A DNA stretch of 64,000 nt, from positions 480,001 to 544,000 of the forward strand of contig CM000434.1 in NCBI GenBank assembly GCA_000165345.1, in the 5' to 3' direction. A model generated the notes under the pieces. It ran no database searches. It saw nothing but the letters and a program-made list of their open reading frames with translations, and was not told the DNA's origin. The position numbers were made by a program, and so were the translations under genes. This document shows positions 22,401 to 58,180 of this stretch, one piece after another (positions within the stretch are counted from its first letter, which is position 1; each line of letters begins with the position of its first letter).

Positions 22401-24365
22401 ACTGAAAGATTAACGAAACTTGATTTATTAAATATTAACAAGATTTCTTTATTTTCGGCAATGGAGGTATTTTCTATATATATTCAAACAAAATTTATCG
22501 ATAATGAAAATGAGATAGGCTGGATATTTTATGCTTTTCCTAAACTATATCAAGCATTCGTATTGATAGATCTCTATATTTGTTTTGGAAATAAAAATTC
22601 CTCAAATTTATTTGAAGATATAGCGAAGGCTAGAGATATGATAGAACAGTACACCAGTAATTTAAATATTAAATACAAGTCAGTGGTTCAAACTACTTTA
22701 GACAGACTTTTTATATTTTATCAGTCTTCCAGCACAATTTCTTTAACAAGATATATAATGGAGATAGATACATTACCAAATCAAAGTTCTCAGATAAAAA
22801 CTCATTTAAGCAGAATTCATGATAGAAAATTAATAACTACAACGTTAACTCAGTCATTAAATTATTTATCTGGCTTTTCTTTAATTAAACCACAAGACGA
22901 AAGTTTAATTAATATTAATCAAATTTTGGAACAAAGTTTATTTTCAAATTTTAATAACTCTAGCTATCTATTTTCAGTAATTCATTATATAAAGTCTATC
23001 ATTTCAGAGTTATTTTTAAATCTGGATAAGCACAAAGCATTTCCAATTTTAGCATTGACTCCAAATGAAATAATTTCCTACTCTTTCTTTGAAAGAAAGT
23101 TAAAAGGAGGTAGTAAGAGACTTTCGAGAATAATGAACGCAGACTTGATCTCTGTTATAATTAAAGCTCTTAATTGTTTTCATTGCTCAACATCAATGTT
23201 CAGGAACAGTGAAATTAGCTCACATAGTGATATGGAATTTCTAATTAAACAGCTTGATCCATTTAAGGGAACATTTGCAATGTTGTCCCACAATATTTTA
23301 CAGTCTAAAGATGTACAATATAGCTATTTTATATGGAAATTCGCCGTCAAGAATCGAATAAACTTTAGTCTTGAAAAAAAACAAATTATTCTAATTTCAT
23401 TGGAATACCGTATCTGGAAATACGATATACATAAGCAGCTTGAATCTAAAATATTTAATGCCAATATAGATAAGTTATCTGGATTCTTTACATCTAAATC
23501 TTTGGAATACTATAATTATTTATTAAAGTGGCTATCGATAATAATTACATTTTTTTCTCTAAATTGTAATGATTTACATCTTATAATGAATAAATTTGAT
23601 AAAACTATTGGTTTAATTAATTATTTATTCCCAATTTATTCTATTAGTCGTACTAATACTGTTGACAAAATTTTGTTTCAGTTATCCAGAGAAATGTTGA
23701 GAAATCAAAATATAATCAACCTACATTTGAATAATTTTAAACGAATAATAAAATTAAATAATCCATATTATCTTTATAGGTTAATAACTAGAGCTCAGGG
23801 AATATCAGATCCATATTTTATTTTGTCAATCATTGAAGTTACTAGCAAAAGTATAAAAAATAGCTATTCTGGAATTAAAAATTCTAAATCAAATAATTTC
23901 AAAAGTAAATTTATTGAAGAAAATATCTATGTAATTTTAAATGTCCAAAGGCTATTTTGTATTTCATATATTAAACATTTTAAAAATAATAGCGATATAT
24001 GGAATGAGTGGTTCATTTTGATTAAAAAGTGGGAAACAACGAAAGGTATAATATCAATGTTGAAATACTCAATAGAAATGAAGATGTTCAGTATAGCAAA
24101 AATTATATCTCAACAATTGCTATTTAAAGTTATAAAGCATTGTGGGGATGTTCAATATACAGAAAAAGAATTGAAACATTTTTTTTCTGGGGATAACTTT
24201 TTTGAAGAAATAGGAAAAGATAATAATTTCAATAATTTTTCTTTAGTTTCAATTGTCAATTATATTATTACAAATATTAGAGATGACAAATTTTTCAGAA
24301 ATATAACTTTATTAAATTATCTAAAGCTGTTGTTTCAAAATGGATTGGTAGTTTCGAAAGTATAA
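19428..24365 (+). CDS. Giant hypothetical protein, part 1 (about 1645 aa from the first ATG); probably continuous with the next ORF
   Basis: Uninterrupted 5-kb ORF with low-complexity Asn/Ile/Lys-rich composition. ORF-track start 19317 is a TTG; first in-frame ATG is 19428. No recognisable catalytic motifs. Confidence 0.5.
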   Translation: MNTDILESRNNRRPRYVSISLNNDELTHFCPFLSDNDEKVLFTLTCNYLSLGQFELARSSILQLSSLNFRKVSELLYSIIYYGPPPDWQLSVTISTSAHFILACIREYESFFRNNTKIENYIIKRTEFDLLIGQMIADISDVKISFEIIKKLRNFYSVFLINGLDVKVPELKILPKIVGLPSYLSRLPSFSTNLNKLSENLLIDLANNQGKYLSIKIINEMFECFNTSRRYFIKIAKILIMDHSNTLKFETSLIKDNSILKNTLSSINVSLNWIGLKNCIIDLIFFKENCGIISLNSLGDMISKNISIIKLEDIFENHDLELTNFTYEKDVSSKNNFTKNKKPEDVISIVFMIFCIINLFCKYKLNKEIFLKFLADQIEILKSCEDICNTCIFDSRIISNVKSLFSENLLKQLSNFQSIHQYLNDINTVKFFENDTYSDHIGTLVNSNSDQNLLFKIVLEFDNILFNINFGISNSLGIFSLPRYIENKNKVTLNPILTYDFSINCKFDEKPFFWCEYLRYLNLSRNKFEELPIIFITNLFDKIYKTKRNINSFESANKIILCFPHLRAICVHLGMKNDPIFNWELLKNIWLPFRLISKNEESLVESKSLELDLDEISRRHAISMFISEELNSNFCSEFRYSSNKNIRKIFEEITLKKSIINYYFDNFNSSKKYTTINWVSLEAFISNIISLPLTIGSDISLLTKERDCIKSYLIQKEVFETIDGKGSSSFGLNLQNTSIEIGNIQTEYFHNELMYCFFCRIFIYLKKIKINNSIIHTKNKKLFNITQLLYYLFIWSDRLSRNFQIEMLPVIEKTFEKTILMIELILFSFPFNIPNLPLPKNLEIFSWWYRFILSTPSRVFNTGKTIIRSSKSSEYFQNLFKVRWVIRGIYENNPWYSNLFSFESFCVLNYYNNSTRNNYSEILLFPSILILKLLSIQNYEKSIELILSSKFHVNITLIVLDGFIFHSLFEEEVINNYCNINKIYGIIKNAKTERLTKLDLLNINKISLFSAMEVFSIYIQTKFIDNENEIGWIFYAFPKLYQAFVLIDLYICFGNKNSSNLFEDIAKARDMIEQYTSNLNIKYKSVVQTTLDRLFIFYQSSSTISLTRYIMEIDTLPNQSSQIKTHLSRIHDRKLITTTLTQSLNYLSGFSLIKPQDESLININQILEQSLFSNFNNSSYLFSVIHYIKSIISELFLNLDKHKAFPILALTPNEIISYSFFERKLKGGSKRLSRIMNADLISVIIKALNCFHCSTSMFRNSEISSHSDMEFLIKQLDPFKGTFAMLSHNILQSKDVQYSYFIWKFAVKNRINFSLEKKQIILISLEYRIWKYDIHKQLESKIFNANIDKLSGFFTSKSLEYYNYLLKWLSIIITFFSLNCNDLHLIMNKFDKTIGLINYLFPIYSISRTNTVDKILFQLSREMLRNQNIINLHLNNFKRIIKLNNPYYLYRLITRAQGISDPYFILSIIEVTSKSIKNSYSGIKNSKSNNFKSKFIEENIYVILNVQRLFCISYIKHFKNNSDIWNEWFILIKKWETTKGIISMLKYSIEMKMFSIAKIISQQLLFKVIKHCGDVQYTEKELKHFFSGDNFFEEIGKDNNFNNFSLVSIVNYIITNIRDDKFFRNITLLNYLKLLFQNGLVVSKV

Positions 24366-24412
24366 TTGGATTTTTAAATAGTAATATTGGTATAGATGAA
24401 AAATATATTATT

Positions 24413-27409
24413 TTGGATGCCTATATTAATTCACAGAACTCTTCATTAGATGCCAATCGTATCAATATATTAAAGACTATACTGACTTCCATAAAATTGG
24501 TAAAAGACCTTAGGATGAGTAATATTCAAGCGTCCAATTTATTTTCTCCATATTTAATTATTAGGATGGCAATTATGTCAAGGAATAGTAGATTGATTGA
24601 AATATTAAAGAGAGATATTGATATTTTTCTAAAATCCGGGGATGTTTTATTAAATTTAATTGAAGAGTCATTTGGAATTATTGACGATAAACAGATACTA
24701 AAGGAAAAGATAAAAAAATCTTATATTTTTGGGCAAGCTGACATAAATTCGTGTATAAAATTATTTCCAATGATTGAAAATAATATTAAATTATGTTTAA
24801 ATATAGAAGATATTCCATCATACAACAATGATATATATTTTTCTATCAAACTGATTTCTATTATACCTAAAAAAAAAACAATGAGTGATCTTTTATTTAG
24901 TATCTCTAACAAGATATCAAACCAGCTTTACAGAATATTTAGAAATTCTATTTCAGATAATTCATTAATCCGCACAAGGTTTGAATGTAGTAATTCGCAG
25001 CTTTGGGTTGCTGAGGAAGGTTCATTAAAAATAATTCCTAACAGCCTACATCCTTTTTCCAAATTTTCAAAAGCAAAAAGAAACTCGTATTATATCAAAA
25101 ATCGGTGTCTAAATAAATATAAGAGCGGATTAAATATAAATTTAGAAAAGAGTTATAATAATAGAAATGAAATCAACATAGAAAATATTTCAAAATCAAG
25201 AATTTTATTTAGAAATTTATTTGTTTTATTAACTTGGGCAAGCGATTATATTGGGAAAAGCGAATTTAGCAAATCAATTAAAAGCTTAACACATTTATTT
25301 GAAATTTGGCAAAGGAATCCTGCATTATCATTCTCTTTGAAAGATTTTGTGTATATAAGTGATTATGTTATTCTAGTTCTAGTTTTCTCTGACCAAATAA
25401 AGATATTAAAAGATTTGAGTGAAAATAATATTCTTGAAACAAATATGAAGCCTTTAGATAAAAATCATGAACCAAAAAATTTAATTATTTGTAACATAGT
25501 TGCAAATTCAATTACAATTTCAAGAATGAACCAGTATTATAACGGAAAAAGTGACCATTCAAATCCCACTACCCTAAATGCATCTAAATCGAGAAATGAA
25601 ATGATAATGGATATATTTTGCAATAAATGGAAGATTAATAGAGGAAAAGTGACCAATATTGAAATTTTAAAGGGCAACACAGTGAGGATTATTGAAAATC
25701 TTTTACTTCTAAAGCCTGATATCTTGAATTTAAGTATTTTAATAATAATATTAACTTACCATTCATGGGGAAAGCTTCAAATGTATATTAGTGGGCAAAT
25801 AAAACGTATGTTACACTTTCCATGCGCATCAATATTAAATTTTAAATTTTTCAATTCAATATTTGAATTATATGAACAATTATTTATCTCAAATGTTAAA
25901 ATTAGAATGAATGAAATATATACAATTTCAGATTTAGTTTCAAACTGGAAAGATTTTTCTGTTGGAATTGAAAATAATTCAGATTTTTTTGAAAATTCTA
26001 ATGATAATTTGAGTTTGTCATATACCACATTTTTTTTAGAGAGAATAACAAATTCTATTAAAAAAAACTTATTCTTAAAATATAAAAAAGCAATTAAAAT
26101 GATAAAATGCATTCAAGTAAAAAAATTGAACAATATAATAATTTATTTTAACCAAAAAAAAGTGAACAACAAAAAATTCTTTCAACTTGACTTCATTAAT
26201 CACTTATTAATACAAAGTACTCCAAATCACTATTTTTTAATAAATACTTTTGTAAAATTAAATCTATGGTGGGAATTAATGGTTTACATTCTAAGATGGA
26301 GTTTTGAGCTTGGACCTTCCAAATCGAGATCTTTATTAATAGATAAAAGACGTGAAATACGAGCAAACAGTGAAAAAACTTTTGAAGAGATATTTTTTGA
26401 CCTGGTTATAAAAAAAGCTCATTCAAAAGGCCAATTAAATTCTCTGATCAATGCAATGAATGAAGCCGTACCATTGGGAGGCCCAAGAGCCGCTATAGTT
26501 GTGAAAAAGTGCAAAAATGCAATACAAAAATACTTAGAATGTAGTGGGGCTTTGGAAATGTTATATAGATCTTTTCTATCACTTTATATTTCAATTGAGA
26601 TTCCTCACGCACTTATGGGGGCAATAGCAATCCATCTTTCACTTCTAGACCATTTAAATATTGATTCAAGGACTGGATACTTAGAATCAGCTTTGTACCA
26701 TTTCAAAAATGCAAATTTGGTATTGAAAAAAAAAGTTAAGTCAGGAGTAATTAAAAAGAACAAACATGCATCTCCAACAAACTGTATTGACTGCGAAAGA
26801 ACTGCAGAAGTCCCATTTCTTTCTCAAAATTTGAATATTGGGAAATTAAACGACGTACTTATTCCATTTATCGCTGATATTCCAATTTATAAAATTAATA
26901 TTTCTCCTTGGGGTGGTCTTTCATTGCCAATAATACAAAGAATAATCAGATTAGTCGAGCTGCAAAATTCGATTATTAAACTCTTAATAAAAGAAAATTC
27001 ATCAATGTCAATTTTAAGTCCAAATTATAAGGATAGAAGAAATGTTATAGTAGTTCTCTTTCTTATTCGTGAATATCCTCTTGCATTTAAGACTTCTAAC
27101 ATGCTTGAAATACCATTGATGGAAATTTTGGTGCATGCGACTAAAGAACTGATAGTTTCTTATCCAAACAGCAATTCTCTTTATTGTTTTCTGGATTCAA
27201 TGAAACTATGGCTGTCAGAATACGACTCGGATGCACTAATATCAAATGCAATAAATATGTGGATCTCGGAAAAAAAAATAAATCTTAATAATATCCCAGA
27301 ATTAGAAAAAAACAGTATAATGGAACTCGTTAATAGGCTGTCAAACCCTTTGAGCAGAAGCGAAGCATTTAAAATGATAAATCCTTTGGAAAGAGTTAAA
27401 TTAAGTTAA
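24413..27409 (+). CDS. Giant hypothetical protein, part 2 (about 998 aa); likely the C-terminal continuation of 19428-24365
   Basis: Same strand, begins 48 nt after the stop of the previous ORF. Its frame stays open more than 50 nt upstream of that stop and it has no ATG until 24515. This fits one gene broken by a frameshift (assembly indel or real) better than two genes. Alpha-helical C-terminal region; no confident domain call. Confidence 0.45.
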   Translation: MDAYINSQNSSLDANRINILKTILTSIKLVKDLRMSNIQASNLFSPYLIIRMAIMSRNSRLIEILKRDIDIFLKSGDVLLNLIEESFGIIDDKQILKEKIKKSYIFGQADINSCIKLFPMIENNIKLCLNIEDIPSYNNDIYFSIKLISIIPKKKTMSDLLFSISNKISNQLYRIFRNSISDNSLIRTRFECSNSQLWVAEEGSLKIIPNSLHPFSKFSKAKRNSYYIKNRCLNKYKSGLNINLEKSYNNRNEINIENISKSRILFRNLFVLLTWASDYIGKSEFSKSIKSLTHLFEIWQRNPALSFSLKDFVYISDYVILVLVFSDQIKILKDLSENNILETNMKPLDKNHEPKNLIICNIVANSITISRMNQYYNGKSDHSNPTTLNASKSRNEMIMDIFCNKWKINRGKVTNIEILKGNTVRIIENLLLLKPDILNLSILIIILTYHSWGKLQMYISGQIKRMLHFPCASILNFKFFNSIFELYEQLFISNVKIRMNEIYTISDLVSNWKDFSVGIENNSDFFENSNDNLSLSYTTFFLERITNSIKKNLFLKYKKAIKMIKCIQVKKLNNIIIYFNQKKVNNKKFFQLDFINHLLIQSTPNHYFLINTFVKLNLWWELMVYILRWSFELGPSKSRSLLIDKRREIRANSEKTFEEIFFDLVIKKAHSKGQLNSLINAMNEAVPLGGPRAAIVVKKCKNAIQKYLECSGALEMLYRSFLSLYISIEIPHALMGAIAIHLSLLDHLNIDSRTGYLESALYHFKNANLVLKKKVKSGVIKKNKHASPTNCIDCERTAEVPFLSQNLNIGKLNDVLIPFIADIPIYKINISPWGGLSLPIIQRIIRLVELQNSIIKLLIKENSSMSILSPNYKDRRNVIVVLFLIREYPLAFKTSNMLEIPLMEILVHATKELIVSYPNSNSLYCFLDSMKLWLSEYDSDALISNAINMWISEKKINLNNIPELEKNSIMELVNRLSNPLSRSEAFKMINPLERVKLS

Positions 27410-47931: not shown

Positions 47932-49425
47932 ATGGACTCTACAATAGCAAATCCGAATATTTCACTTAGTAATGATATTAATTATAAAAGATTTGACCCT
48001 GGATATTCTGACATAGAAAATATTGAATTATTAAAAGAGGCAATTAGGGTTGGACTACCTTCTCATTATGATTTTGAAATAATTAAAACAATTAAAAAAA
48101 TTAATGAAATAAAATCTATCTCAGATGAGCGTGAAAACTTTACCGTGTATTTACAAATGCCGGAAGGGTTGTTAGTTTTTTCTCAATCTATTTCTCTTAT
48201 TTTACAACACTTTGCCCGAACGAGTGTAGTAATTTTGGGGGATATAACATATGGAGGATGCTGCATAGAAGATCAATTAATGAGCATATTAGAATCTTCA
48301 CATTCAAAATCATCAAACCAGTCTTTACTGGTGCATTATGCTCATTCATGTTTAATTCCATTTGAAGAATTAGCTATGTCTAAAGACATTAATATTGCAA
48401 ACATTCTTTATATCTTCGTTGAAATTAATTTGTTATCGGATCATTTTATTCAAACTATCAAGCATAATTTTAAAAAAGAAGATAAGATTGCACTATTATC
48501 AACTATTCAATATCATAGCACAATTGTTGGTTCTCAGAAGTGCTTGAATGATTATTTTTTAAACCCAGTAAAAATTCCGGTTTGTGACCCATTGGCATGG
48601 GGCGAAACCCTCGGATGTACCAGCGCAATTATTGATGGCGATGTAGAAAAGTGCATTTTTCTTTCGGATGGTAGATTTCATCTTGAAAGCGCTATGATAC
48701 AAAATCCAAGTAAAGTATTTTATTTATATGAGCCTTTTTCAAAAAAAATTACAAGAGAAACTTATAGTCATCAGCTTTTACATGAAATAAGAAAAAGTTC
48801 AATAGTAAATTCGTTCAAAATAGTTCAAGCGGGCGGAAGTAATTTAATTAATGACTCTGTAGTGATTGGAATATTCTTCAGTACATTAGGCCGTCAAGGG
48901 AGTTTTGCAATAGTTGAAAGACTGGAAAAACTTATAAATAAATATAATACGAACACAAATAATAAAACAAAAATTGTCGCTTGCACTATTTTTGCTTCAG
49001 ATTTATCTGCAGAATGTATAAATGATAATATTTTAGAAGGGGTCGACTATTCAATACAGCTTGCATGCCCCAGGCTTTCTACTGACTGGGGAGCCTATTA
49101 TAAAAAGCCGATTCTAAATTCATATGAGGCATTTGTATTATTGGGAAATCTTTCTAATAATAACTTCCAGTTTTTTTGTGATATGGAAAATAATTTAGAT
49201 TTATCAAACTCCGAATTTTCATACCTCCAAACTTACCCAATGAATTATTGGGCATCAAATGGTAATATTTGGTGTAACTATTATTCAGATGAATCTAGAA
49301 ACGGAAGTTTTGGAGCATCTAAGGACCAAATTGATGAGATAAAGTACAATATTAGGCAGAACAAACTCAAGAACTTGACTAAAAGAAAAATTAACTTGCA
49401 ATATGAAAGAAATGAGTTAGCTTAG
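47932..49425 (+). CDS. DPH2: Diphthamide biosynthesis protein, Dph1/Dph2 family (probably DPH2)
   Basis: FEIIKTIKKINE...VYLQMPEGLLVFSQSISLIL...VVILGDITYGGCCIED and later ...PVCDPLAWGETLGCTSAI match conserved Dph1/Dph2 blocks (..ALQFPEGLL... V.VLGDVTYGACCVDD). Length 497 aa favours Dph2. Confidence 0.7.
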   Translation: MDSTIANPNISLSNDINYKRFDPGYSDIENIELLKEAIRVGLPSHYDFEIIKTIKKINEIKSISDERENFTVYLQMPEGLLVFSQSISLILQHFARTSVVILGDITYGGCCIEDQLMSILESSHSKSSNQSLLVHYAHSCLIPFEELAMSKDINIANILYIFVEINLLSDHFIQTIKHNFKKEDKIALLSTIQYHSTIVGSQKCLNDYFLNPVKIPVCDPLAWGETLGCTSAIIDGDVEKCIFLSDGRFHLESAMIQNPSKVFYLYEPFSKKITRETYSHQLLHEIRKSSIVNSFKIVQAGGSNLINDSVVIGIFFSTLGRQGSFAIVERLEKLINKYNTNTNNKTKIVACTIFASDLSAECINDNILEGVDYSIQLACPRLSTDWGAYYKKPILNSYEAFVLLGNLSNNNFQFFCDMENNLDLSNSEFSYLQTYPMNYWASNGNIWCNYYSDESRNGSFGASKDQIDEIKYNIRQNKLKNLTKRKINLQYERNELA

Positions 49426-49714: not shown

Positions 49715-52700
49715 ATGGAAGAAGTTAATATAAATCAAGTTTTACTAGAAAGAGGGATTAGTTACACTTGTACTCAAATACTTGATGCCCATGCAAAAAA
49801 ATTAAAAAATGAAATTAATACTAGATGTAGAGAATTTCAGTCTGTTGATGAGCTGATAAATTTTTCAAATTCAGATCAAAACAGAAATGATTCAAATGGC
49901 TTGCTTTCAAATTTTGATTGGAGAAGTAGTTATTTACCGCATATTTATTCTGCTACATTAGGATTGAAAAATGGCTTTATTGACCCAAAGCTGCAAGGCG
50001 AGCTATATCAATCCATTTTAAAGTGCATTAATCAAGGGTTTGTCTCCGGAAATATTGGTATTGTAAGGATTTCTGACCATTCTCATCCTGTCAGATTAGC
50101 GACTCCAATTGATAAAACATGCTATTCCCTTGTTTGGCGTAAAAAAGATTTATCCGAAACTCACGACATTCCTATAGTATTAGGAGAATATACTGGGGAT
50201 GTGAAATACGTCGGAGATGAGGAAATTAGTGACGAGTCATATTCATTCCAGCTTACTTTTAAAAGTTCGGCATTTAAATTCACAGGCGCTGTTGTATCAG
50301 GTAGTCATCAACAATTTGGTGATTTTTCAGCAAATAACACAGATAAATTGAGTGATCAACCAACTTATTTTCCTGATGAGTTTGAATATACTGAGGCAAA
50401 TGATAATTCATATTCCCCAAATAAGTCTTCTTTCTTCTCAAAGCCGTTTAGTCAAACCCGAAATGAATTACTTTCAACTGATGGTAACATTAAAAAAATA
50501 GGAGCTAGGCTTTTACTTCCAAATGAAAATGAATATATATTATCAGCTGACAAGACTTGTAATGAAATGGCATTTCTTAATCATTATGAATGCGTGTTTA
50601 ATAATAATTTTAACTTTAGAATAAATGTTCAATGGCATTCTGTTTATGTTGATGGATGGCCGCATATCATTTTAACTTCTATTCCTGGGGTTGGAATCAA
50701 ATTAGGCGACGAACTTGCAGCAGACTTTGGTGAAAACTGGTTTTCTAGAATTCGGCGTATTTCTGAAAACAATATTAAAAACGAGCTAATTTTATTTAGG
50801 TTAAGATTTAATAGTGGTAATAATCAGGGGAGTGTAAATTTTTCAGATTTAGATGAGAATTTATCACTTAAACAAACTGATTCGAAAGACTCTCTATCTA
50901 ATTGTGGAATTAGCGGACTAATAAATTTTTATGAAATCTGCGAAGTTTGTCAGAACTCGATCACCTCACAGGCAAGAAAAAGTTATTACAAGCCAAAGAA
51001 TGAAGACAGTGTTTTATTTTTAAAATCAAAATTTGATTACTTGCTTTGCAATGGATGCAATAGAGCCTTTCACTGGTACTGCGTAAATCGCCCTGAGTTT
51101 AGAGATCTTAAAACTAGTTCAAAAAATTGGTTCTGCTTTCAATGTCTTTCATTGACTTTGAGAATTCTTCCATCACTGATATATAGAATTCCTAATTTAA
51201 CTCCTGGATTAATAAACTCCATTCAAAATTTGTATAACTCTACCGATGATTTAATTCCAGGCGTAATTGATGCAATAGGAAATGTTGTTCTTAGGTCAAC
51301 AGATGAAGTTAATACAGAAGACCCCAAAAGCATCGTATTTAGGCCTCCAGAATATTTCGATTATAATTTAAGGCATTTTAACGAGTATGGTGGCCTTGAA
51401 GGTCTTACTAAACTCAAACCTTGCTATTTGTGTTACTCGTCGTCAACCATTTCAAATCAAATGATTGGCATTGCAACGATATGCAGAATACATAGGCTTC
51501 ACATTGCTCCAGATTATGACGAATTTTTTAATTCAGTTCAGTACACCTATAATTCTGATAACAATCAACTGGTAAGTAACAGTTCCCTTCATTTATCTTT
51601 GGTAGCTGATGATTATGGTAAACGAAAGTATACAGCCTCCACACAAAGTAGCACAGAAGATATTATAAGACCACACATAAAGAAACTTTCTGGTTCAAGA
51701 TATATTATTGAAAGGAGTAGGAGAGTTATTTGTTCTCTTAGACAATCTCTCTATCAGTCAGAAAAACACAGAGTAGAACTATTATATAAACTTGAAAAAT
51801 TAAGAAAAATTCAGGATGAATATTTTAGAAATATAAGCGAAGGAAATGGCATGATTCCAGTACTATGTATTAAACTCGGAAGTACAATACTAAATAAAGA
51901 GTTTTCCGGTAGGCTTTATCAAGGAGTTATATCACGCTACTATCCAAAAGAGAGGATATTTCATATAGAATATCTTGACGGGGATCGCGAGGATTTAGAG
52001 TATAATGATTTTATTTCATTATTAGCTAATGACATTGAGAATCATCGAATAAATATCGATGATTTATTAATTACCGATAACCACGTAAAAAGTACCAAGA
52101 AAACGTCTGAAAATCTTATACCTTATAGAAATTCAAAAAAGCATACAATATTTGGGATATCTGAAGAATTTTATAAATCCGAAAACTTTGAATTTAATAT
52201 TATCAAAATGAAAAATGAAAAATTATTGACTGAGACTTACAAGAATTTTAATATCGATTCAATTTATGATAAGGTTAAATTGATTCACAAATTTATTATT
52301 CAAGAGTGCAAAATGAATCAAGATAATGAAGATGCAATATTAATTAGAGAAACCCCCAAGTATGAATATATTGATCAACCTGAATGGAATATTATTTGTG
52401 GATCATTAAACATAGAATCAAATTTAATCAAGTATTTTGTTGGCGTAAATATTTCTCGGATCAGTCACAAAACAACCACATTTAATATTACTTCAAAAAT
52501 TTGCATTGGGAATGTATTCCTAATTAAAACCATCCCCATAACAATCTATAACGAGTTTAGTATTAATAATGACGAATTAGCCGAGCTAAATGAAAAAAGC
52601 CACTCCGAAATATTAAATACGATTAGATTTTCAGCAATAGAAATACTTGCTTGGACTCAGAGCCGTTTGAGTGAAATTTTTATTAAAGAAACAAGTTTAA

Positions 52701-54145
52701 ACAATAATGATGGTATTGCGCTTGACAAAGTTGATGGATGTGAAAATACTAATATTGAACAAAATTACAAACGGGATTTAGGCGAATCTTTAAACTCAGA
52801 TTTTAATTCAGCACTTGTGAAAGAAAATTGGTTACAAAAGGCCAATTTGATTGCTCAAGCGCTTCAACCATATCCAACTGGAATTAAATGGATTAATGAA
52901 ACACACTCATGGAAAGTTGTTTATTCAAATGAATTTGGACAGAAGATCTCGAAGTTTTTCGATACGATTCCATTTGATGAAAATGCTACAGTAGAGTCAT
53001 TGTATTTAAAGGCATGTAAATTTGTTTCTGTTTCTCAAACAAATAATAAAGTAATTAAAATGCTTAGCACTAGCAGAAAACTTAATAAAATTACCAATGA
53101 GATATCTAGTCCACTAGATAAATTTATTTTTAATGAATGGGGGAACACTATCGAAGATTTTTTGGCAAGATATAATTTAAATAATCCTGATAGAGCTGTA
53201 TATTCCATCAATGATTTTAATAATGAAATTAACTCATTAAGGCCATTTCCTGATAATTTAGATTGGTGTGATTCTACATTTTCGTTTGTAGTTGTTCTAC
53301 CTAGTAATGAAAAAAGATCATTTCAACTTGATAAATTCGAATTCAATATTATTAACTGCTATTCAGCGGCTTACAGTTTGGCAATCGGGAATGTAAATAT
53401 TGATAAGGAGTTTTATAATAGAAAGATAAGGAAATATAATTCAAAAGTAAAGAATAACACCAATCCTACCCAATTAAAAAAACAAATTTATAAAAAACAT
53501 TTGATAAATAATAGACACGAAAGTCCTTCGGAAGAAAAGAAGGAAAATTTTTCTTTGAATAAATCTATTAATACCAAACAAAAAAACTCGAATGAAACAG
53601 GCAAATTCACAAGTTTGCCAAGCTGTCAAGTTTATTCGTACCAAGATAAAGAAACTACAGATACAAACACTTCATCTGAAGAAAGTTTACTTGGAAATAT
53701 TTGCGAATCAAAAATAGAGCCTAAGGAGCTTATTAATGAAGATTTAAAGGGAAATTCTTTCAATAAACTACCAAGTTCCGATGAAGATAAGCTTTCTATT
53801 AGAGCAAAAAGTAATAAGCGTAAAACAATAGTAAGGGCACTACCTGCTCCATCAGATCCATTGAGCAGGGCTAGAATAATTGAATATAGCAAACAAGCTG
53901 ATGAGCTGAGACCTTTTCCCCACGGCATAACTTGGTGTTACCGTTCTGCAAGGTTCAAAGTAAGATATAGGAGATCAAGTGATGGTTGTTGGACTGCAAC
54001 ATCGTTCACTCCCACTAAATTCAATTCTGTGAAAGAGGCATTTGAAAACGCAGTAGATAAATTAGCGGCTCATATTAACGATTATAAAAATAGTAATGAA
54101 ATCCCTATTATTCCGAAGAAAAGACATTTAGAAATTGAACCTTAA
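49715..54145 (+). CDS. Chromatin protein with SET domain, PHD finger and two putative AP2-like DNA-binding domains (about 1475 aa)
   Basis: SET C-terminal blocks FLNHYECVFNNNF...NVQWHSVYVDGWPHIILTSIPGVGIKLGDELAADFGENWF (compare NHSCxPN...GEELTxDYG). PHD finger CEVCQNS...LLCNGCNRAFHWYCVNRP...WFCFQC. Two segments with AP2-like pattern: GIKWINETHSWKVVYSNEFGQKISKFFDT..ENATVESLYLKACKF and GITWCYRSARFKVRYRRSSDGCWTATSFTPTKFNSVKEAFENAVDKLAA. First ATG 49715 (track TTG 49670). Confidence 0.65.
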   Translation: MEEVNINQVLLERGISYTCTQILDAHAKKLKNEINTRCREFQSVDELINFSNSDQNRNDSNGLLSNFDWRSSYLPHIYSATLGLKNGFIDPKLQGELYQSILKCINQGFVSGNIGIVRISDHSHPVRLATPIDKTCYSLVWRKKDLSETHDIPIVLGEYTGDVKYVGDEEISDESYSFQLTFKSSAFKFTGAVVSGSHQQFGDFSANNTDKLSDQPTYFPDEFEYTEANDNSYSPNKSSFFSKPFSQTRNELLSTDGNIKKIGARLLLPNENEYILSADKTCNEMAFLNHYECVFNNNFNFRINVQWHSVYVDGWPHIILTSIPGVGIKLGDELAADFGENWFSRIRRISENNIKNELILFRLRFNSGNNQGSVNFSDLDENLSLKQTDSKDSLSNCGISGLINFYEICEVCQNSITSQARKSYYKPKNEDSVLFLKSKFDYLLCNGCNRAFHWYCVNRPEFRDLKTSSKNWFCFQCLSLTLRILPSLIYRIPNLTPGLINSIQNLYNSTDDLIPGVIDAIGNVVLRSTDEVNTEDPKSIVFRPPEYFDYNLRHFNEYGGLEGLTKLKPCYLCYSSSTISNQMIGIATICRIHRLHIAPDYDEFFNSVQYTYNSDNNQLVSNSSLHLSLVADDYGKRKYTASTQSSTEDIIRPHIKKLSGSRYIIERSRRVICSLRQSLYQSEKHRVELLYKLEKLRKIQDEYFRNISEGNGMIPVLCIKLGSTILNKEFSGRLYQGVISRYYPKERIFHIEYLDGDREDLEYNDFISLLANDIENHRINIDDLLITDNHVKSTKKTSENLIPYRNSKKHTIFGISEEFYKSENFEFNIIKMKNEKLLTETYKNFNIDSIYDKVKLIHKFIIQECKMNQDNEDAILIRETPKYEYIDQPEWNIICGSLNIESNLIKYFVGVNISRISHKTTTFNITSKICIGNVFLIKTIPITIYNEFSINNDELAELNEKSHSEILNTIRFSAIEILAWTQSRLSEIFIKETSLNNNDGIALDKVDGCENTNIEQNYKRDLGESLNSDFNSALVKENWLQKANLIAQALQPYPTGIKWINETHSWKVVYSNEFGQKISKFFDTIPFDENATVESLYLKACKFVSVSQTNNKVIKMLSTSRKLNKITNEISSPLDKFIFNEWGNTIEDFLARYNLNNPDRAVYSINDFNNEINSLRPFPDNLDWCDSTFSFVVVLPSNEKRSFQLDKFEFNIINCYSAAYSLAIGNVNIDKEFYNRKIRKYNSKVKNNTNPTQLKKQIYKKHLINNRHESPSEEKKENFSLNKSINTKQKNSNETGKFTSLPSCQVYSYQDKETTDTNTSSEESLLGNICESKIEPKELINEDLKGNSFNKLPSSDEDKLSIRAKSNKRKTIVRALPAPSDPLSRARIIEYSKQADELRPFPHGITWCYRSARFKVRYRRSSDGCWTATSFTPTKFNSVKEAFENAVDKLAAHINDYKNSNEIPIIPKKRHLEIEP

Positions 54146-54229: not shown

Positions 54230-55426
54230 CTAGATCTCGGGGAATGAATGCAGAAATGGATCGGCGATACTGCCTGTATCAAGTCTATGTATTGGGTTAT
54301 TATCCCATACATTTGAGTTTTCATTCCATACATACCAATTAGGATCTCTATAATCCATTTCATTGTAAATACTTGGCTCTTCATTAAAGATGCAAATTGG
54401 TTGAATACACTTACTAGGTAGACACTCGCTCAGCTCTGATGATGGCGTCAAGAACTCTGATTTTGAGATATATTCATTATCTTGATTTGTTTCACACGTA
54501 GAAGGTTCAATAGCGTTATTTGTTTTATAATTATTGCAATTTTCTGTGAATGTAGGAGTAACAGGGTAAATCCCAACATCACTTGCAAGAAGGACACCTG
54601 GTGGGGATTGCTGGAACTCAAGGCATGCGCGTCTGAAGTTTCTAGGAGAAAACTCTATTTCTGAATTCGATGGCACAACTTCGCAAGTACTTTCAATTGT
54701 TTGAATTCTTTGCTTATATAAGTCGGGATCATTTTTAATAACATTTTCTTGTCTTTGTTCAAAGCCTTCAAAACGACTGTAGTTCTCAACCGGTTTTCTG
54801 TTTGATTTAGAGTAATGCTTATCAACTTCTAATTCACTTTGAATGAACGATACTTCATTTTCGGAATAGATTGGCTTGTTTTTTTTAAATTGATCTATTG
54901 ATTCCTTTTCATTCATGCATCTGTAGTTACTTATAGATTCTCGTCTTTTTTTAATAATGGCTTTTTTAACTCTTATTTGATTACCAACTTCGGATTCTTT
55001 TTCAGGAGGATCTTTAAAGAAATTAGTTTGCTGCAAGAAATGTGGTACAACGTGAATTAGTGGTGCATTAAGAATGGTTTCAAGCTTAGTTTTTCCTTGG
55101 TTAAGTAATCTTTGCAATTGATGGTATCTGTTTTTCACTGCATGCGTAGTTCTTCCAGGAAGATGTCTTGCAATATCTGCCCATCTGTTTCCCCAAAGAT
55201 TTTGCTGGTTTAAAATAAATCTGTCCTCAGAAAGTGACCAATCGCCTCTTCTGATTCTTGGATCAACATGCGATATCCACCTTTCTCTACATTGCTTTGC
55301 TAATCTATTTACGTTAAGTGTTGAATTAAGCAATCTAGCCGTTTCAGACCAGCTTGATGGTCCAAGCCGTTGAACTAACTGATACAACAGCTCATCCTCT
55401 TCTGCATTCCAAGGCTCTTGGGGCAT
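54230..55426 (-). CDS. Myb-domain (R2R3-type SANT/Myb) transcription factor
   Basis: Two Myb repeats: WNAEEDELLYQLVQRLGPSSWSETARLL..RLAKQCRERWISHVDPRIRRGDWSLSED and W(G)NRWADIARHLPGRTTHAVKNRYHQLQR. Confidence 0.8.
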   Translation of the reverse strand: MPQEPWNAEEDELLYQLVQRLGPSSWSETARLLNSTLNVNRLAKQCRERWISHVDPRIRRGDWSLSEDRFILNQQNLWGNRWADIARHLPGRTTHAVKNRYHQLQRLLNQGKTKLETILNAPLIHVVPHFLQQTNFFKDPPEKESEVGNQIRVKKAIIKKRRESISNYRCMNEKESIDQFKKNKPIYSENEVSFIQSELEVDKHYSKSNRKPVENYSRFEGFEQRQENVIKNDPDLYKQRIQTIESTCEVVPSNSEIEFSPRNFRRACLEFQQSPPGVLLASDVGIYPVTPTFTENCNNYKTNNAIEPSTCETNQDNEYISKSEFLTPSSELSECLPSKCIQPICIFNEEPSIYNEMDYRDPNWYVWNENSNVWDNNPIHRLDTGSIADPFLHSFPEI

Positions 55427-55867: not shown

Positions 55868-58180
55868 ATGAGCGAAGTAAATAAAAAGAAGAACAAGACA
55901 AATACTAGATACAATGATGAACAGGAAATTAAAAATCTCAAGAATAGAATTGTTATAGAGCTCCCATGTAGAGGAAAATCTTGGAATAATCCTAATCTCT
56001 TAAATCACGGTGTTATTAATAACAAAAATGCTGAGCTCCCTGTAAAAAGAATTAAAATTGAGGATATCATGAGTCCGGATTTATTCTCTGATCTACCAAT
56101 AAGTAGAAGAACTTTGGAAGGTTTGAGGGCGGAAGGCTATTATCAGATGACGTTGATTCAAAGAGACACACTACCTCATTCGCTACAAGGAAGAGATATA
56201 ATTGGTCAGGCAAGAACAGGCAGTGGAAAAACTTTAGCGTATGTAATACCGATATTAGAAAATATTTATAGGGATAACTATTGTTCAATTGATGGGCTTT
56301 TATCTCTGATATTGACTCCAACCAGAGAACTTGCAAGCCAAGTATTTGATGTGATAAAAGAAATTGGTAAATTTCACTCGACCTTATCAGCAGGATGTAT
56401 TGTTGGAGGGAAAGATATTAAGTCAGAATCATCTAGAATCAATATGCTGAATATTCTTGTTGCAACTCCTGGAAGGCTCATTCAACATATGGATGAGTCC
56501 CCACTCTGGGACGCAAACAATTTGAAAATTTTAGTAATCGATGAGGTGGATAGAATGCTTGATATGGGATTTTTAAACGATATAAAAATAATTTTAGATG
56601 GTATTCCATCTTCATCTTCGGGAAGACAAACCATGCTTTTTTCTGCTACAGTTTATTCGTCAGAACTTTCTATTAAAAAAATTGAAAACTTGTTTCGACC
56701 TAATCAGCTAGAAAGTTTTTCTCTCGATAACATAGGGGCACTACCTAAAAATCTTCAACAGCTATATATTAAAGTTGCAATTCATGAAAAAATTGATACT
56801 TTATTCAACTTTTTGCGTACTCATAGCAATAAAAAAATAATTGTTTTTGTTTCCTGTTGCAAACAAGTTAGATTTTTATCCACAGTTTTTACAAAGCTAA
56901 AAATAGGATGTAAAGTGTTAGAACTTTATGGAAAGCAATCACTACAAAAAAGACTTGAGGTGGTTCACAATTTTTATACACATGAGAGTTTGGTAACGTC
57001 GAATGAAAAACTCAAATTAAAAAATATAGGAAGAAATTCAAAGTCCTCTTACGATGGGGCGGTCTTATTCTGCACTGATATCGCATCTAGAGGATTAGAC
57101 TTTCCCAAAATTGATTGGGTTATTCAATTAGACATTCCTGAAAATGCAGATACTTATGTTCATAGAATTGGTAGGACAGCAAGATATATTTCTAAAGGTA
57201 AATCATTACTGTTTGTTATGTCTAATGAAGGCTATTTTTTAAAAAGTCTATATGAAAAAGGAATAAATACAATTAAAAAAGTTACTCCCAATGAATATGA
57301 GATGAGATATACGATTCATTCTTCACTGCAAAGCATTTGCGCTTCAGACCAAAATATAAAAGAAATGGCAGAAAGGGCATTTTCTGCATATATTAAGAGC
57401 CTTTTTATTTTAACTCCTAACGATAAACGTGAGGAACTTAAGAAGTTGGATTTCTCTGCATTTGCACTATCTTTAGGATTAGCAATTCCTCCTAAAATCA
57501 AAATTAACAACACAGAAAGTGAGAAAAGATTAATTTCAAAACATTCTTCCAAACTCCAAAAATTTAAGGAGAAAATCAGGCAAAAAAAGTTATCAAAAAA
57601 TTTGGATGACAATGAAGATATAAATTCTAATAGATTATTACAAAAAGATGACAGCGAACCAATTGACATATTGTCGGATGAACTAATTCTTTTTTCAAAT
57701 AATGAGTCTGCTATAAATCAAGAAAAGTTATCAGCTATTCCGTTAAATAAAAAAGTTGCCACTGATAAGTTGAGATTTAGATCTGATTATTCTGGTAAAA
57801 TAAGAGGGCATGGAAATTTTGATTTGGATAAGAAACACATATTTTTCAGTGATGATGAAGGGCCAGGTACAATTAATGAAGATAATAAATGTGAAAACTT
57901 AGATATTGATTGTCAGAGAAAATATATTGAACAGGTTAAAAATCGTTTGAAATGTCAAACTAAAAATGATAAAGAAAGAGATAGAGAAAGAGTGCATGAA
58001 ATGCATGTTAAAAAAAGAAGAATTTCGCGTCAATTTAGAAGTGAGAAATCAAATAATGCCAATGATATTGAATTGATTGAAAGCAGGGAAGAGGAAGAAA
58101 GCAGAATTTGTGATGAAGATAATTTACACAATTTAACTACAGCGGCTTTAGAAAAATTAGGAATACAAATATCAAATTAG
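55868..58180 (+). CDS. DEAD-box ATP-dependent RNA helicase, DDX10/Dbp4-like
   Basis: Q motif and motif I (TLIQRDTLPHSLQGRDIIGQARTGSGKTLAY), Ia ATPGRLIQHM (DDX10/Dbp4-like TPGRLLQHM), II VIDEVDRML (DEVD), III SAT, VI HRIGRTAR. Charged C-terminal extension typical of nucleolar helicases. Confidence 0.85.
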   Translation: MSEVNKKKNKTNTRYNDEQEIKNLKNRIVIELPCRGKSWNNPNLLNHGVINNKNAELPVKRIKIEDIMSPDLFSDLPISRRTLEGLRAEGYYQMTLIQRDTLPHSLQGRDIIGQARTGSGKTLAYVIPILENIYRDNYCSIDGLLSLILTPTRELASQVFDVIKEIGKFHSTLSAGCIVGGKDIKSESSRINMLNILVATPGRLIQHMDESPLWDANNLKILVIDEVDRMLDMGFLNDIKIILDGIPSSSSGRQTMLFSATVYSSELSIKKIENLFRPNQLESFSLDNIGALPKNLQQLYIKVAIHEKIDTLFNFLRTHSNKKIIVFVSCCKQVRFLSTVFTKLKIGCKVLELYGKQSLQKRLEVVHNFYTHESLVTSNEKLKLKNIGRNSKSSYDGAVLFCTDIASRGLDFPKIDWVIQLDIPENADTYVHRIGRTARYISKGKSLLFVMSNEGYFLKSLYEKGINTIKKVTPNEYEMRYTIHSSLQSICASDQNIKEMAERAFSAYIKSLFILTPNDKREELKKLDFSAFALSLGLAIPPKIKINNTESEKRLISKHSSKLQKFKEKIRQKKLSKNLDDNEDINSNRLLQKDDSEPIDILSDELILFSNNESAINQEKLSAIPLNKKVATDKLRFRSDYSGKIRGHGNFDLDKKHIFFSDDEGPGTINEDNKCENLDIDCQRKYIEQVKNRLKCQTKNDKERDRERVHEMHVKKRRISRQFRSEKSNNANDIELIESREEEESRICDEDNLHNLTTAALEKLGIQISN

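What the first reader, a model, noticed from the sequence alone, without database searches (positions are those of the whole stretch)
49715..54145. SET methyltransferase + PHD finger protein that also contains two AP2-like DNA-binding domains
Within one 1475-aa ORF I see the SET C-terminal core (NHYEC..., ..KLGDELAADFGENWF), a canonical C4HC3 PHD finger, and two about 50-aa segments. Each segment has the three-strand plus helix pattern of ApiAP2 domains: G(I/T)xW...RFKVxY...F....A...A.., for example GITWCYRSARFKVRYRRSSDGCWTATSFTPTKFNSVKEAFENAVDKLAA. AP2 is the main sequence-specific transcription-factor fold in Apicomplexa. A fusion to a histone methyltransferase plus a methyl-lysine reader would couple DNA-sequence recognition directly to chromatin writing. 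The AP2 assignment is by eye and needs profile confirmation.
Basis: inference. Interest (0 to 1): 0.55.

Follow-up and report, generated by a model that had tools for sequence, protein, structure and literature searches.

The report
Cryptosporidium SET–PHD–Tudor protein with three AP2 modules
This Cryptosporidium gene encodes a chromatin protein that joins a divergent histone-methyltransferase-like domain and two histone-reader domains to three AP2-type nucleic-acid-binding modules; Toxoplasma is already reported to have this combination (AP2VIIa-7), so it is a newly recognised member of a known kind, not a new invention.

Summary
Window 49715-54145 (+) is one intact ORF of 1476 codons whose start matches all Cryptosporidium orthologues.

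- **Pfam:** It scores neither SET nor AP2 above threshold.
- **AP2:** the call is well supported, and there are three helix-β3-helix modules (R1, R2, R3), not two.
  - AlphaFold2 models them at pLDDT 80-92.
  - A profile of the repeats retrieves proteins whose matched segments independently hit Pfam AP2.
  - hhalign links R3 and R1 to those segments at 98% probability.
- **R3** is strongly basic and is the most conserved segment I measured in the protein. R2 looks degenerate.
- **Relatives:** the protein is collinear with Plasmodium SET10 (which has no AP2 part), a Selenidium protein and Cardiosporidium 'AP2VIIa-7'. TgAP2VIIa-7 is published as an AP2 factor with PHD and SET domains.

Verdict: new member of a known kind, of moderate interest.

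The parts
49715..54145 (+). Complete single-exon CDS, 1476 codons plus stop. It is the Cryptosporidium orthologue of the SET10 / AP2VIIa-7 family.
   Evidence: ORF listing. The start at MEEV is shared by 11 Cryptosporidium orthologues of 37-92% identity and full-length coverage. Translation checked.
49922..50749 (+). Divergent SET-like domain (aa 70-345). It has an N-lobe (aa 110-190, with the invariant GEYTG motif), a poorly conserved insert (aa 191-264) and a C-terminal core (aa 265-345) carrying NHYEC and GDELAADFG.
50930..51154 (+). PHD finger (aa 406-480), C4HC3 with a long 32-residue first loop.
   Evidence: Pfam PF00628, 25.4 bits against a cut-off of 24. PDB phmmer hits to the AIRE, BAZ2A and UHRF1 PHD fingers. 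The eight zinc ligands are invariant in 12 species. Pattern located.
51392..51532 (+). Conserved Cys/His module (aa 560-606): LKPC570-x2-C573-x16-C590-x5-H596 followed by APDYDEFF. Possibly a zinc-binding element; it has no family assignment.
   Evidence: 51% invariant columns in Cryptosporidium. It is also aligned in the Selenidium, Cardiosporidium and P0016 relatives and weakly in P. fragile. No Pfam hit for aa 546-615.
51857..52024 (+). Tudor domain of the PTM/DIR17 type (aa 715-770; Pfam match at aa 727-766).
   Evidence: Pfam PF21743, 38.3 bits against a cut-off of 27.2, E=1e-9. The same family is precomputed for all Cryptosporidium orthologues. It is weakly present near the C-terminus of the Plasmodium homologues.
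52805..53035 (+). AP2-fold module R1 (aa 1031-1107): N-terminal helix, the signature LQPYPTGIKW, three β-strands and a C-terminal helix.
   Evidence: AF2 secondary structure H2-20, E28-31, E36-42, E48-54, H64-78 in model numbering (model residue + 1029 = protein residue), pLDDT about 75-87. hhalign against Pfam-AP2-positive segments: 98.2% probability, E=4e-14. 43% identity to a Selenidium AP2 segment. No direct Pfam AP2 hit.
53207..53386 (+). AP2-fold module R2 (aa 1165-1224), a degenerate copy: LRPFPDNLDW..., with an acidic or neutral sheet and low conservation.
   Evidence: AF2 secondary structure H136-144, E153-156, E161-165, E171-175, H183-195, pLDDT 85-91. It aligns in register with R1 and R3. 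Its sheet is 9% invariant with net charge -1. No Pfam hit.
53441..53824 (+). Disordered, low-complexity, Lys/Ser/Asn-rich linker (aa 1243-1370) between R2 and R3.
   Evidence: pLDDT 21-33. 2% invariant columns.
53858..54070 (+). AP2-fold module R3 (aa 1382-1452): helix, LRPFPHGITW, an Arg-rich three-stranded sheet (YRSARFKVRYRR) and a helix. It is the best candidate for the nucleic-acid-binding module.
   Evidence: AF2 secondary structure H353-367, E376-379, E384-390, E397-402, H410-423, pLDDT 81-92. Pfam AP2 E=0.041, 14.6 bits, below the cut-off. hhalign against AP2-positive segments: 98.5% probability, E=1.6e-15. Its sheet is 85% invariant across 12 species against 25% for the whole protein, with net charge +5.

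Best explanation
The ORF encodes the Cryptosporidium member of an old apicomplexan chromatin-protein family: Plasmodium SET10, the Toxoplasma-type AP2VIIa-7, and an archigregarine homologue.

**Shown here.** From N- to C-terminus the protein carries:
- a very divergent SET-like domain;
- a C4HC3 PHD finger;
- a conserved CCCH module;
- a PTM/DIR17-type Tudor domain;
- a genus-specific middle region;
- three helix-β3-helix modules with the AP2 fold, which are homologous to Pfam-recognisable AP2 domains of related proteins.

**Inferred.**
- R3 is highly basic and nearly invariant, and may be helped by R1. It probably docks the protein on specific DNA sites through its β-sheet, as canonical AP2 domains do.
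- R2 is a degenerate copy that likely serves as a structural or protein-contact spacer.
- PHD and Tudor probably read histone-tail marks, giving multivalent DNA-plus-chromatin targeting.
- The SET-like domain either methylates histone H3 locally or acts mainly as a scaffold. The first option follows PfSET10, reported as an H3K4 methyltransferase and later as required for H3K18me1. The second follows TgAP2VIIa-7, which is a core partner of bromodomain proteins BDP1, BDP2 and BDP5.
- In Plasmodium the AP2 part is absent, so targeting there would have to be supplied in trans.
For: **Architecture and orthology**
- Full-length orthologues occur in 11 Cryptosporidium species.
- aa 70-485 match the P. 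fragile protein named histone-lysine N-methyltransferase at E=2e-44. The Tudor and CCCH regions are collinear.
- The protein is collinear with Selenidium P0017 (aa 303-605, E=8e-25, plus R1 at 43% identity). It is also collinear with Cardiosporidium 'AP2VIIa-7' P0024 (aa 61-164, 271-602 and R3).

**PHD and Tudor**
- Both are above Pfam cut-offs.

**AP2 fold**
- AF2 models three modules at pLDDT 80-92.
- Foldseek's top three hits are the same proteins.

**AP2 homology**
- The repeat profile finds 20 proteins among 1.84 billion representatives at E<=1e-3.
- 11 of the 17 non-query hits scanned have Pfam AP2 hits (E up to 0.1), three of them above the gathering score (41-42 bits).
- 9 of 10 excised matched segments hit PF00847 on their own at E from 1e-6 to 2e-3, in register.
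- hhalign links R3 and R1 to those segments at 98% probability.

**R3 as the binder**
- Its sheet is 85% invariant with net charge +5.

**SET**

**Literature**
- PfSET10 knockout abolishes H3K18me1, and PfSET10 is proximal to many ApiAP2 proteins (PMC11580448).
Against: - No module reaches Pfam's AP2 gathering score. Whole-protein Pfam and PDB sequence-profile searches gave no AP2 hit.
- The best structural matches are AP2 proteins built into the T. gondii mitoribosome, where they are part of an RNA-protein machine. The fold therefore does not by itself imply sequence-specific DNA binding.
- R2 lacks basic residues.
- SET support is weak. There is no Pfam SET hit, the only PDB sequence hit is SET8 at E=0.004-0.015, and the N-lobe adds no score.
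- The N-terminal AF2 model has mean pLDDT 43.5.
- The residue aligned with the last Tyr of SET8's ELLYDYG motif is Phe338. It is Phe in all the aligned Cryptosporidium and Plasmodium sequences, and W, L or R in Selenidium, Cardiosporidium and P0016. The NH motif is also not kept outside Cryptosporidium and Plasmodium.
- The T. gondii sequence itself could not be retrieved. Orthology to TgAP2VIIa-7 therefore rests on a Cardiosporidium protein that bears that name, plus the published domain description.
- No binding or activity data exist for the Cryptosporidium protein.
Confidence: 0.72

Rival explanations
1. The three AP2-fold modules are not sequence-specific DNA readers. They serve as RNA-binding or protein-protein interaction modules, for example docking to bromodomain or other chromatin partners. 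Genomic targeting would come from PHD, Tudor and partner proteins.
For: - The closest solved structures are AP2-domain proteins that are structural components of the Toxoplasma mitoribosome.
- R2 and, in most species, R1 carry little positive charge.
- Oberstaller et al. found several high-scoring C. parvum AP2 domains with no detectable DNA motif, and suggested that some AP2 domains act outside DNA binding (PMC4117751).
- All three modules sit below the Pfam AP2 threshold.
Against: - R3 has the Arg/Lys-rich β-sheet typical of DNA-contacting AP2 domains, with net charge +5. It is the most conserved segment I measured in the protein.
- The rest of the protein is made of nuclear chromatin domains (PHD, Tudor, SET-like).
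- The authors of the T. gondii study treat AP2VIIa-7 as the putative DNA-binding subunit of the BDP1 complex.
Confidence: 0.2
2. The SET-like domain is a pseudo-enzyme. The protein is essentially an ApiAP2-type targeting or reader subunit whose SET fold only provides a binding surface, so no direct DNA-to-chromatin-writing coupling occurs in cis.
For: - The canonical Tyr of the ELxF/YDY motif is replaced by Phe here and in Plasmodium, and by W, L or R in other lineages. The NH motif varies across the family.
- No Pfam SET match is found even for the Plasmodium proteins.
- The gene is absent from a published list of 10 C. parvum SET-domain methyltransferases (PMC9487757).
- Reports on the substrate of PfSET10 conflict (H3K4 against H3K18me1; PMC11580448).
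Against: - The SET core is strongly conserved within Cryptosporidium (63% invariant columns), and GWPHI(I/L)LTSIPG is kept as far as Plasmodium and Selenidium.
- Loss of PfSET10 abolishes H3K18me1 in P. falciparum, and the protein was earlier described as an H3K4 methyltransferase (PMC11580448).
- The H of the NH motif and the acidic E/D-L motif are retained in Cryptosporidium and Plasmodium.
Confidence: 0.3
3. The AP2 resemblance is convergent or due to chance. A small β3-α unit is a common supersecondary structure, and the segments are an unrelated lineage-specific repeat.
For: - There is no Pfam AP2 hit above threshold.
- PDB sequence-profile searches with R3 and R1 gave no AP2.
- Foldseek E-values are only 0.03-0.14.
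Against: - Proteins retrieved by the repeat profile carry independent Pfam AP2 hits at the same positions, some above the gathering score.
- hhalign to those segments gives E=1e-14 to 1e-15 over 66 columns.
- R3's own Pfam AP2 alignment is in register (profile positions 5-44 of 54).
Confidence: 0.03

Closest known systems
Toxoplasma gondii AP2VIIa-7 (TGME49_202490) and the proteins named after it (e.g. Cardiosporidium cionae KAF8820941.1)
   Same: - It has the same combination of domains. [quoted passage not shown]
- The Cardiosporidium protein of that name aligns collinearly with the window protein over the SET-like N-lobe, the SET core, the PHD and CCCH modules, and R3.
- It shares the module signature LxP(F/Y/W)PxG(I/V)xW.
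   Different: - It is much larger (3041 aa in Cardiosporidium).
- No Tudor hit was found there by Pfam.
- The number and spacing of AP2 modules differ.
- The SET-core motifs differ: KH instead of NH, and DLG instead of DFG.
- Association with bromodomain proteins is shown only in Toxoplasma.
- The T. gondii sequence itself was not compared here.
Plasmodium SET10 (PfSET10, PF3D7_1221000; P. fragile and P. brasilianum homologues P0012 and P0013)
   Same: - The SET-like domain and PHD finger are homologous (26% identity over about 415 aa, E=2e-44).
- It has the same CCCH module and a PTM/DIR17-type Tudor domain.
- It has the same NH..C and E-L-x-A-D-F-G core.
   Different: - The Plasmodium proteins have a long N-terminal extension and DUF7073.
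- They end just after the Tudor domain, and no AP2-like module is detectable with the repeat profile.
- Functional data (H3K4 or H3K18me1, var, rif and stevor repression) exist only for Plasmodium (PMC11580448).
Canonical ApiAP2 / plant AP2-ERF DNA-binding domains (Pfam PF00847; PfSIP2 6sy0, AtERF1 2gcc)
   Same: - It has a three-stranded antiparallel sheet packed on a C-terminal helix.
- R3 aligns in register with the Pfam model.
- R3 has an Arg-rich sheet.
   Different: - The modules fall below Pfam's gathering score.
- There is an extra N-terminal helix and a P-Φ-P-x-G signature before strand 1.
- One of the three copies is degenerate.
- No DNA motif is known.
AP2-domain proteins of the Toxoplasma mitoribosome (AP2VIIb-2, AP2IX-6, AP2IV-1; PDB 9i05, 9g6k, 9hqv)
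   Different: Those proteins are ribosome constituents. The window protein carries nuclear chromatin domains. Sequence identity is only 12%.

Membership tests
AP2/ERF domain (Pfam PF00847; ApiAP2) | Three-stranded antiparallel β-sheet followed by an α-helix packed against it | tested here: met
   [not shown]
AP2/ERF domain (Pfam PF00847; ApiAP2) | Score at or above the family's curated Pfam cut-off | tested here: not met
   There is no AP2 hit on the whole protein. R3 alone scores 14.6 bits, E=0.041, against a cut-off of 33.3. R1 and R2 give no hit.
AP2/ERF domain (Pfam PF00847; ApiAP2) | Homology to recognised AP2 domains, demonstrable through intermediate sequences | tested here: met
   The repeat profile retrieves proteins with Pfam AP2 hits at the matched positions, three of them above the cut-off. 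9 of 10 excised segments hit PF00847 at E from 1e-6 to 2e-3. hhalign gives 98.5% for R3 and 98.2% for R1.
AP2/ERF domain (Pfam PF00847; ApiAP2) | Basic or aromatic DNA-contacting surface on the β-sheet | tested here: inconclusive
   The R3 sheet has net charge +5 and is 85% invariant. The R1 sheet ranges from 0 to +6 depending on species. The R2 sheet ranges from -2 to +1. Residue-by-residue mapping onto a DNA complex was not done.
AP2/ERF domain (Pfam PF00847; ApiAP2) | Sequence-specific DNA binding | not testable with these tools
   This needs a protein-binding microarray, DAP-seq, EMSA or CUT&RUN.
SET-domain lysine methyltransferase (Pfam PF00856) | Score at or above the Pfam cut-off | tested here: not met
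   There is no SET hit at E<=10 for the window protein, nor at E<=1 for the Plasmodium and C. muris homologues.
SET-domain lysine methyltransferase (Pfam PF00856) | Conserved C-terminal SET core (NH..C and E-L-x-x-D-Y region) alignable to solved SET domains | tested here: met
   Profile A7 matches SET8/KMT5A only, at E=0.004 over 70 columns, with NH aligned to NH and GDELAADFG aligned to GEELLYDYG. The match is weak and is not improved by adding the N-lobe.
SET-domain lysine methyltransferase (Pfam PF00856) | SET fold | tested here: inconclusive
   [not shown]
SET-domain lysine methyltransferase (Pfam PF00856) | Invariant catalytic Tyr at the end of the ELxF/YDY motif (its role as the catalytic residue is from my own knowledge of SET enzymes) | tested here: not met
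   The aligned residue is Phe338. It is invariant in Cryptosporidium and Plasmodium, and is W, L or R in other lineages.
SET-domain lysine methyltransferase (Pfam PF00856) | SAM-dependent methyl transfer to lysine | not testable with these tools
   The only evidence is by analogy to PfSET10 (PMC11580448).
PHD finger (Pfam PF00628) | C4HC3 ligand pattern and a score above the Pfam cut-off | tested here: met
   25.4 bits against 24. The pattern spans C409 to C477 with all ligands invariant. PDB hits include AIRE-PHD1 at E=2e-5.
PTM/DIR17-like Tudor (Pfam PF21743) | Score above the Pfam cut-off | tested here: met
   38.3 bits against 27.2 at aa 727-766.
SET10 / AP2VIIa-7 orthologous group | Collinear SET-like, PHD and CCCH modules (with or without Tudor and AP2) shared with named members | tested here: met
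   Matches to the P. fragile protein named histone-lysine N-methyltransferase, to Cardiosporidium 'AP2VIIa-7' and to the Selenidium homologue.
SET10 / AP2VIIa-7 orthologous group | Direct alignment with T. gondii TGME49_202490 | not tested
   The sequence was not returned by any search available here. The link rests on the name carried by the Cardiosporidium protein and on the published domain description.

The most novel reading that the evidence does not exclude
The AP2 part, not the SET part, may be the functional heart of this family.

- R3 is the most constrained segment I measured in the protein.
- The SET-like domain has lost the canonical catalytic Tyr in every lineage examined.
- Cryptosporidium carries further paralogues that share the same AP2 subtype (N-terminal helix plus an LxPΦPxGΦxW signature), at least one of which also has a SET-like core. 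Examples are C. xiaoi/bovis P0032 and C. muris CMU_031500.

If so, there is an unrecognised, ancient ApiAP2 subfamily. It would be absent from public protein names and probably from published Cryptosporidium AP2 and SET inventories. In that case the genus's transcription-factor repertoire is undercounted. Plasmodium SET10 would then be a derived form that lost its built-in DNA reader and must be recruited in trans.
Probability: 0.35. Interest if true: 0.5.

Novelty: new member of a known kind. Interest (0 to 1): 0.35.

Why it matters
Cryptosporidium has few recognisable transcription factors, and its gene regulation is poorly understood. This work adds three AP2-fold modules to a protein that public records name only as a 'PHD domain protein', a 'hypothetical protein' or a 'putative H3K4 methyltransferase'. 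The protein is also missing from a published list of C. parvum SET enzymes.

It gives a concrete candidate for a factor that links DNA-site recognition, histone-mark reading and possibly histone methylation in one polypeptide. It also connects two literatures that have been separate: PfSET10 in malaria parasites and AP2VIIa-7/BDP1 in Toxoplasma. The comparison suggests that Plasmodium lost the in-cis AP2 part.

The general idea of the fusion is already published for Toxoplasma, so the advance is annotation and evolutionary context, not a new principle.

Tried and rejected
- **Whole-protein Pfam scan.** It gave no SET and no AP2.
- **Single-segment Pfam scans.** R1 and R2 gave nothing relevant, and R3 only a sub-threshold AP2 hit.
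- **PDB sequence-profile searches with R3 and R1.** They returned no AP2 proteins, only chance hits such as Rhs and DOCK2.
- **SET N-lobe joined to the C-core with the insert removed.** The SET8 hit did not improve (E=0.014), so the N-lobe has no sequence-level support.
- **Word-indexed profile searches with the SET-PHD alignments.** They returned only one unrelated-looking hit each and did not retrieve Toxoplasma.
- **afdb50 fold library.** It was unavailable.
- **Exact-sequence look-up of the window protein.** It found no record, so the species and gene ID could not be fixed. The closest match is C. meleagridis at 92%.
- **Literature searches.** 'cgd6_2240' (a guessed ID) gave nothing. I could not establish whether Oberstaller et al.'s C. 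parvum AP2 list includes this gene, because no supplement is held.
- **Spurious hits to the repeat profile.** P0019, P0023, P0027, P0029 and P0031 have many tiny stretches, and the four I scanned (all but P0029) match Tudor/SH3-like, pacifastin or other unrelated families. I disregarded them as low-complexity or repeat artefacts.

Full report
**1. The observation**

Window 49715-54145 (+) is one uninterrupted ORF. The mechanical ORF list begins at a TTG at 49670. However, all 11 Cryptosporidium orthologues found (37-92% identity, full-length coverage) start at MEEV, which is the ATG at 49715.

The window is AT-rich (GC about 0.25-0.40). The best database match is C. meleagridis at 92%. An exact-sequence look-up found no record, so this is a Cryptosporidium close to, but not identical with, the species on record.

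- NHYEC at aa 289-293.
- KLGDELAADFGENWF at aa 329-343.
- A C4HC3 pattern from C409 to C477.
- The two 'AP2-like' strings at aa 1404-1452 and about 1056-1104.

**2. What standard profiles say**

Pfam on the whole protein gives two families above their curated cut-offs:
- PHD (aa 441-477, 25.4 bits against 24).

Neither SET (PF00856) nor AP2 (PF00847) appears, even at E<=10. Scanned alone, the C-terminal segment R3 gives AP2 at E=0.041 and 14.6 bits (cut-off 33.3). That alignment is in register (profile positions 5-44 of 54). The other two segments give nothing relevant.

**3. The AP2 question: structure**

I modelled aa 1030-1476 with AlphaFold2, using the 12-species alignment. The model shows three similar modules, not two. 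Each has an N-terminal helix, three β-strands and a C-terminal helix:

| Module | Residues | pLDDT |
|---|---|---|
| R1 | aa 1031-1107 | 75-87 |
| R2 | aa 1165-1224 | 85-91 |
| R3 | aa 1382-1452 | 81-92 |

R2 and R3 are separated by a 128-residue disordered linker (pLDDT below 35).

- Further down: the plant AP2 domains of AtERF1 (4.3), TEM1 (4.2) and WRI1 (4.1).

Foldseek against the PDB independently put the same Toxoplasma AP2 proteins at ranks 1-3. Its E-values were only 0.03-0.14. The AP2 fold is therefore supported.

The best matches are AP2 proteins that are built into the Toxoplasma mitoribosome. This is a reminder that the fold does not guarantee DNA binding.

**4. The AP2 question: homology**

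The three modules align with each other almost without gaps. They share the signature L-x-P-(F/Y)-P-x-x-(I/L)-x-W before and in strand 1. R3 and R1 match each other profile-to-profile at E=1e-5.

A profile of all three modules (A6) was searched against 1.84 billion representative proteins. It found 20 proteins at E<=1e-3.
- Five of these are obvious low-complexity or repeat artefacts.
- Of the 17 non-query hits I scanned, 11 carry Pfam AP2 matches (E up to 0.1). P0016, P0017 and P0026 score 41-42 bits, above the gathering score, and the matches lie at or next to the matched positions.
- When the matched segments were cut out and scanned alone, 9 of 10 hit PF00847 at E from 1e-6 to 2e-3, in register.
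- An alignment of those AP2-positive segments (A10) matches R3 by hhalign at 98.5% probability (E=1.6e-15, 66 columns). It matches R1 at 98.2% (E=4e-14).

The segments in A10 were selected by similarity to the repeats. Their Pfam AP2 scores, however, are independent of that selection. I conclude that the modules are genuine but divergent AP2 domains.

**5. Which modules could bind nucleic acid**

I measured conservation and charge across the 12 Cryptosporidium species:

| Region | Invariant columns | Net charge |
|---|---|---|
| R3 β-sheet (ITWCYRSARFKVRYRRSSDGCWTATSF) | 85% | +5 |
| R1 β-sheet | 22% | 0 to +6, by species |
| R2 β-sheet | 9% | -2 to +1, by species |
| SET core | 63% | not relevant here |
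| Whole protein | 25% | not relevant here |

R3 is thus the most constrained segment I measured in the protein. It has the Arg-rich sheet expected of a DNA-contacting AP2 domain; that expectation rests on established knowledge of AtERF1 and PfAP2 complexes and is an inference here. R2 looks like a degenerate structural copy.

**6. The SET question**

The N-terminal 'apicomplexan-specific globular domain', as one database record calls it, matches Plasmodium proteins named histone-lysine N-methyltransferase. The match covers aa 70-485 at 26% identity, E=2e-44. By name and architecture (central SET-like domain plus PHD) I take these to be the SET10 orthologues. Pfam does not see SET in those proteins either.

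Evidence for a SET domain:
- A profile of the C-terminal core (aa 254-359, Cryptosporidium plus Plasmodium) hits only human SET8/KMT5A in the PDB. The E-value is 0.004 over 70 columns, aligning NH with NH and GDELAADFG with GEELLYDYG.
- Adding the N-lobe does not raise the score.

So a SET-like domain is likely, but it is highly divergent.
- The residue aligned with the last Tyr of SET8's ELLYDYG motif is Phe338. From my own knowledge, that Tyr is the invariant catalytic Tyr of the ELxF/YDY motif. The Phe is invariant in all Cryptosporidium and Plasmodium sequences examined.
- In Selenidium, Cardiosporidium and P0016 that position is W, L or R, and the NH motif is not kept.
- PfSET10 was earlier described as an H3K4 methyltransferase. 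More recent work shows it is needed for H3K18me1 but not for H3K4 methylation (PMC11580448).

Whether the Cryptosporidium domain is catalytic cannot be decided here.

**7. Family and evolutionary context**

The names of the retrieved proteins and pairwise comparisons place the protein in an old family.
- **Selenidium pygospionis** (archigregarine) P0017 has the SET-like core, the PHD and CCCH modules, and several AP2 domains. aa 303-605 of the query match at E=8e-25, and R1 matches at 43% identity.
- **Cardiosporidium cionae** P0024, annotated 'AP2 domain transcription factor AP2VIIa-7', is collinear over the N-lobe, the core, the PHD and CCCH modules, and R3.
[quoted passage not shown] It co-purifies with TgBDP1, BDP2 and BDP5 at the highest confidence, and the authors treat it as the putative DNA-binding subunit (PMC10470533). 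I could not retrieve the T. gondii sequence itself.
- **Plasmodium.** The homologues end just after the Tudor domain and show no match to the repeat profile. Either they lost the AP2 part or it has diverged beyond recognition.

Database names for the Cryptosporidium orthologues never mention AP2. A 2022 survey of C. parvum SET-domain methyltransferases lists ten genes, none of this size (PMC9487757).

**8. Most likely mechanism**

Shown here: a single polypeptide combines a SET-like domain, a PHD finger, a CCCH module, a Tudor domain and three AP2-fold modules.

Inferred:
- R3, perhaps with R1, docks on DNA.
- PHD and Tudor bind modified histone tails, giving multivalent targeting.
- The SET-like domain either methylates H3 locally or serves as a scaffold in a bromodomain-containing complex.

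Rivals:
- The AP2 modules bind RNA or proteins instead of DNA (0.2).
- The SET-like domain is a pseudo-enzyme (0.3; this is compatible with DNA targeting).
- The AP2 resemblance is chance (0.03).

**9. Novelty and score**

It is already described for Toxoplasma, and the SET-PHD half is the well-studied PfSET10. What is new:
- the recognition of three AP2 modules, a Tudor domain and a CCCH module in the Cryptosporidium protein;
- the finding that R3 is its most constrained part;
- the evolutionary link between SET10 and AP2VIIa-7, with apparent loss of the AP2 part in Plasmodium.

This is a new member of a known kind. Interest is 0.35.

Noticed in passing
window 51392-51532 (+), aa 560-606 of the same protein: There is a conserved C-x2-C-x16-C-x5-H module (LKPCYLCYSS...ICRIHRLHIAPDYDEFF). 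It has no Pfam family. It is also present in the Selenidium, Cardiosporidium and P0016 relatives, and weakly in Plasmodium SET10. It may be an undescribed zinc-binding element of this family.
   Followed up: partly
proteins P0032/P0033 (C. xiaoi and C. bovis, 1210 aa) and P0020/P0021/P0034-36 (C. muris CMU_031500, C. andersoni, C. serpentis, C. xiaoi, C. bovis; about 1040-1140 aa): Cryptosporidium has further paralogues with the same AP2 subtype (LxPΦPxGΦxW). P0032 also has a SET-like core (40% identity to aa 276-362) and a Cys-rich finger. The C. xiaoi and C. bovis members of the second group are named 'adenosine monophosphate deaminase', which looks like a misannotation.
   Followed up: partly
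window 54230-55426 (-): The gene immediately downstream, convergent with this one, encodes a 398-aa protein with two Myb DNA-binding repeats (Pfam PF00249, E=7e-25). It is another putative transcription factor, only about 85 bp from the stop codon of the SET-PHD-AP2 gene.
   Followed up: partly
window 47932-49425 (+) and 55868-58180 (+): The flanking genes are a diphthamide-synthesis protein (PF01866, E=7e-67) and a DEAD-box helicase with an SPB4-like C-terminal extension (PF00270, PF00271, PF13959). They are ordinary housekeeping neighbours, and gene spacing is very tight.
   Followed up: yes
window 20001-26000: This stretch has markedly lower GC (0.24-0.25) than the rest of the window (0.28-0.40). 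I did not examine it.
   Followed up: no
aa 800-1030 of the protein (window about 52112-52804): This middle region is conserved within Cryptosporidium (for example IHK..I..ECK and PKYEYIDQPEWN). It has no Pfam family and no detected counterpart in the Plasmodium, Selenidium or Cardiosporidium relatives. I did not model it.
   Followed up: no
[not shown]
   Followed up: no
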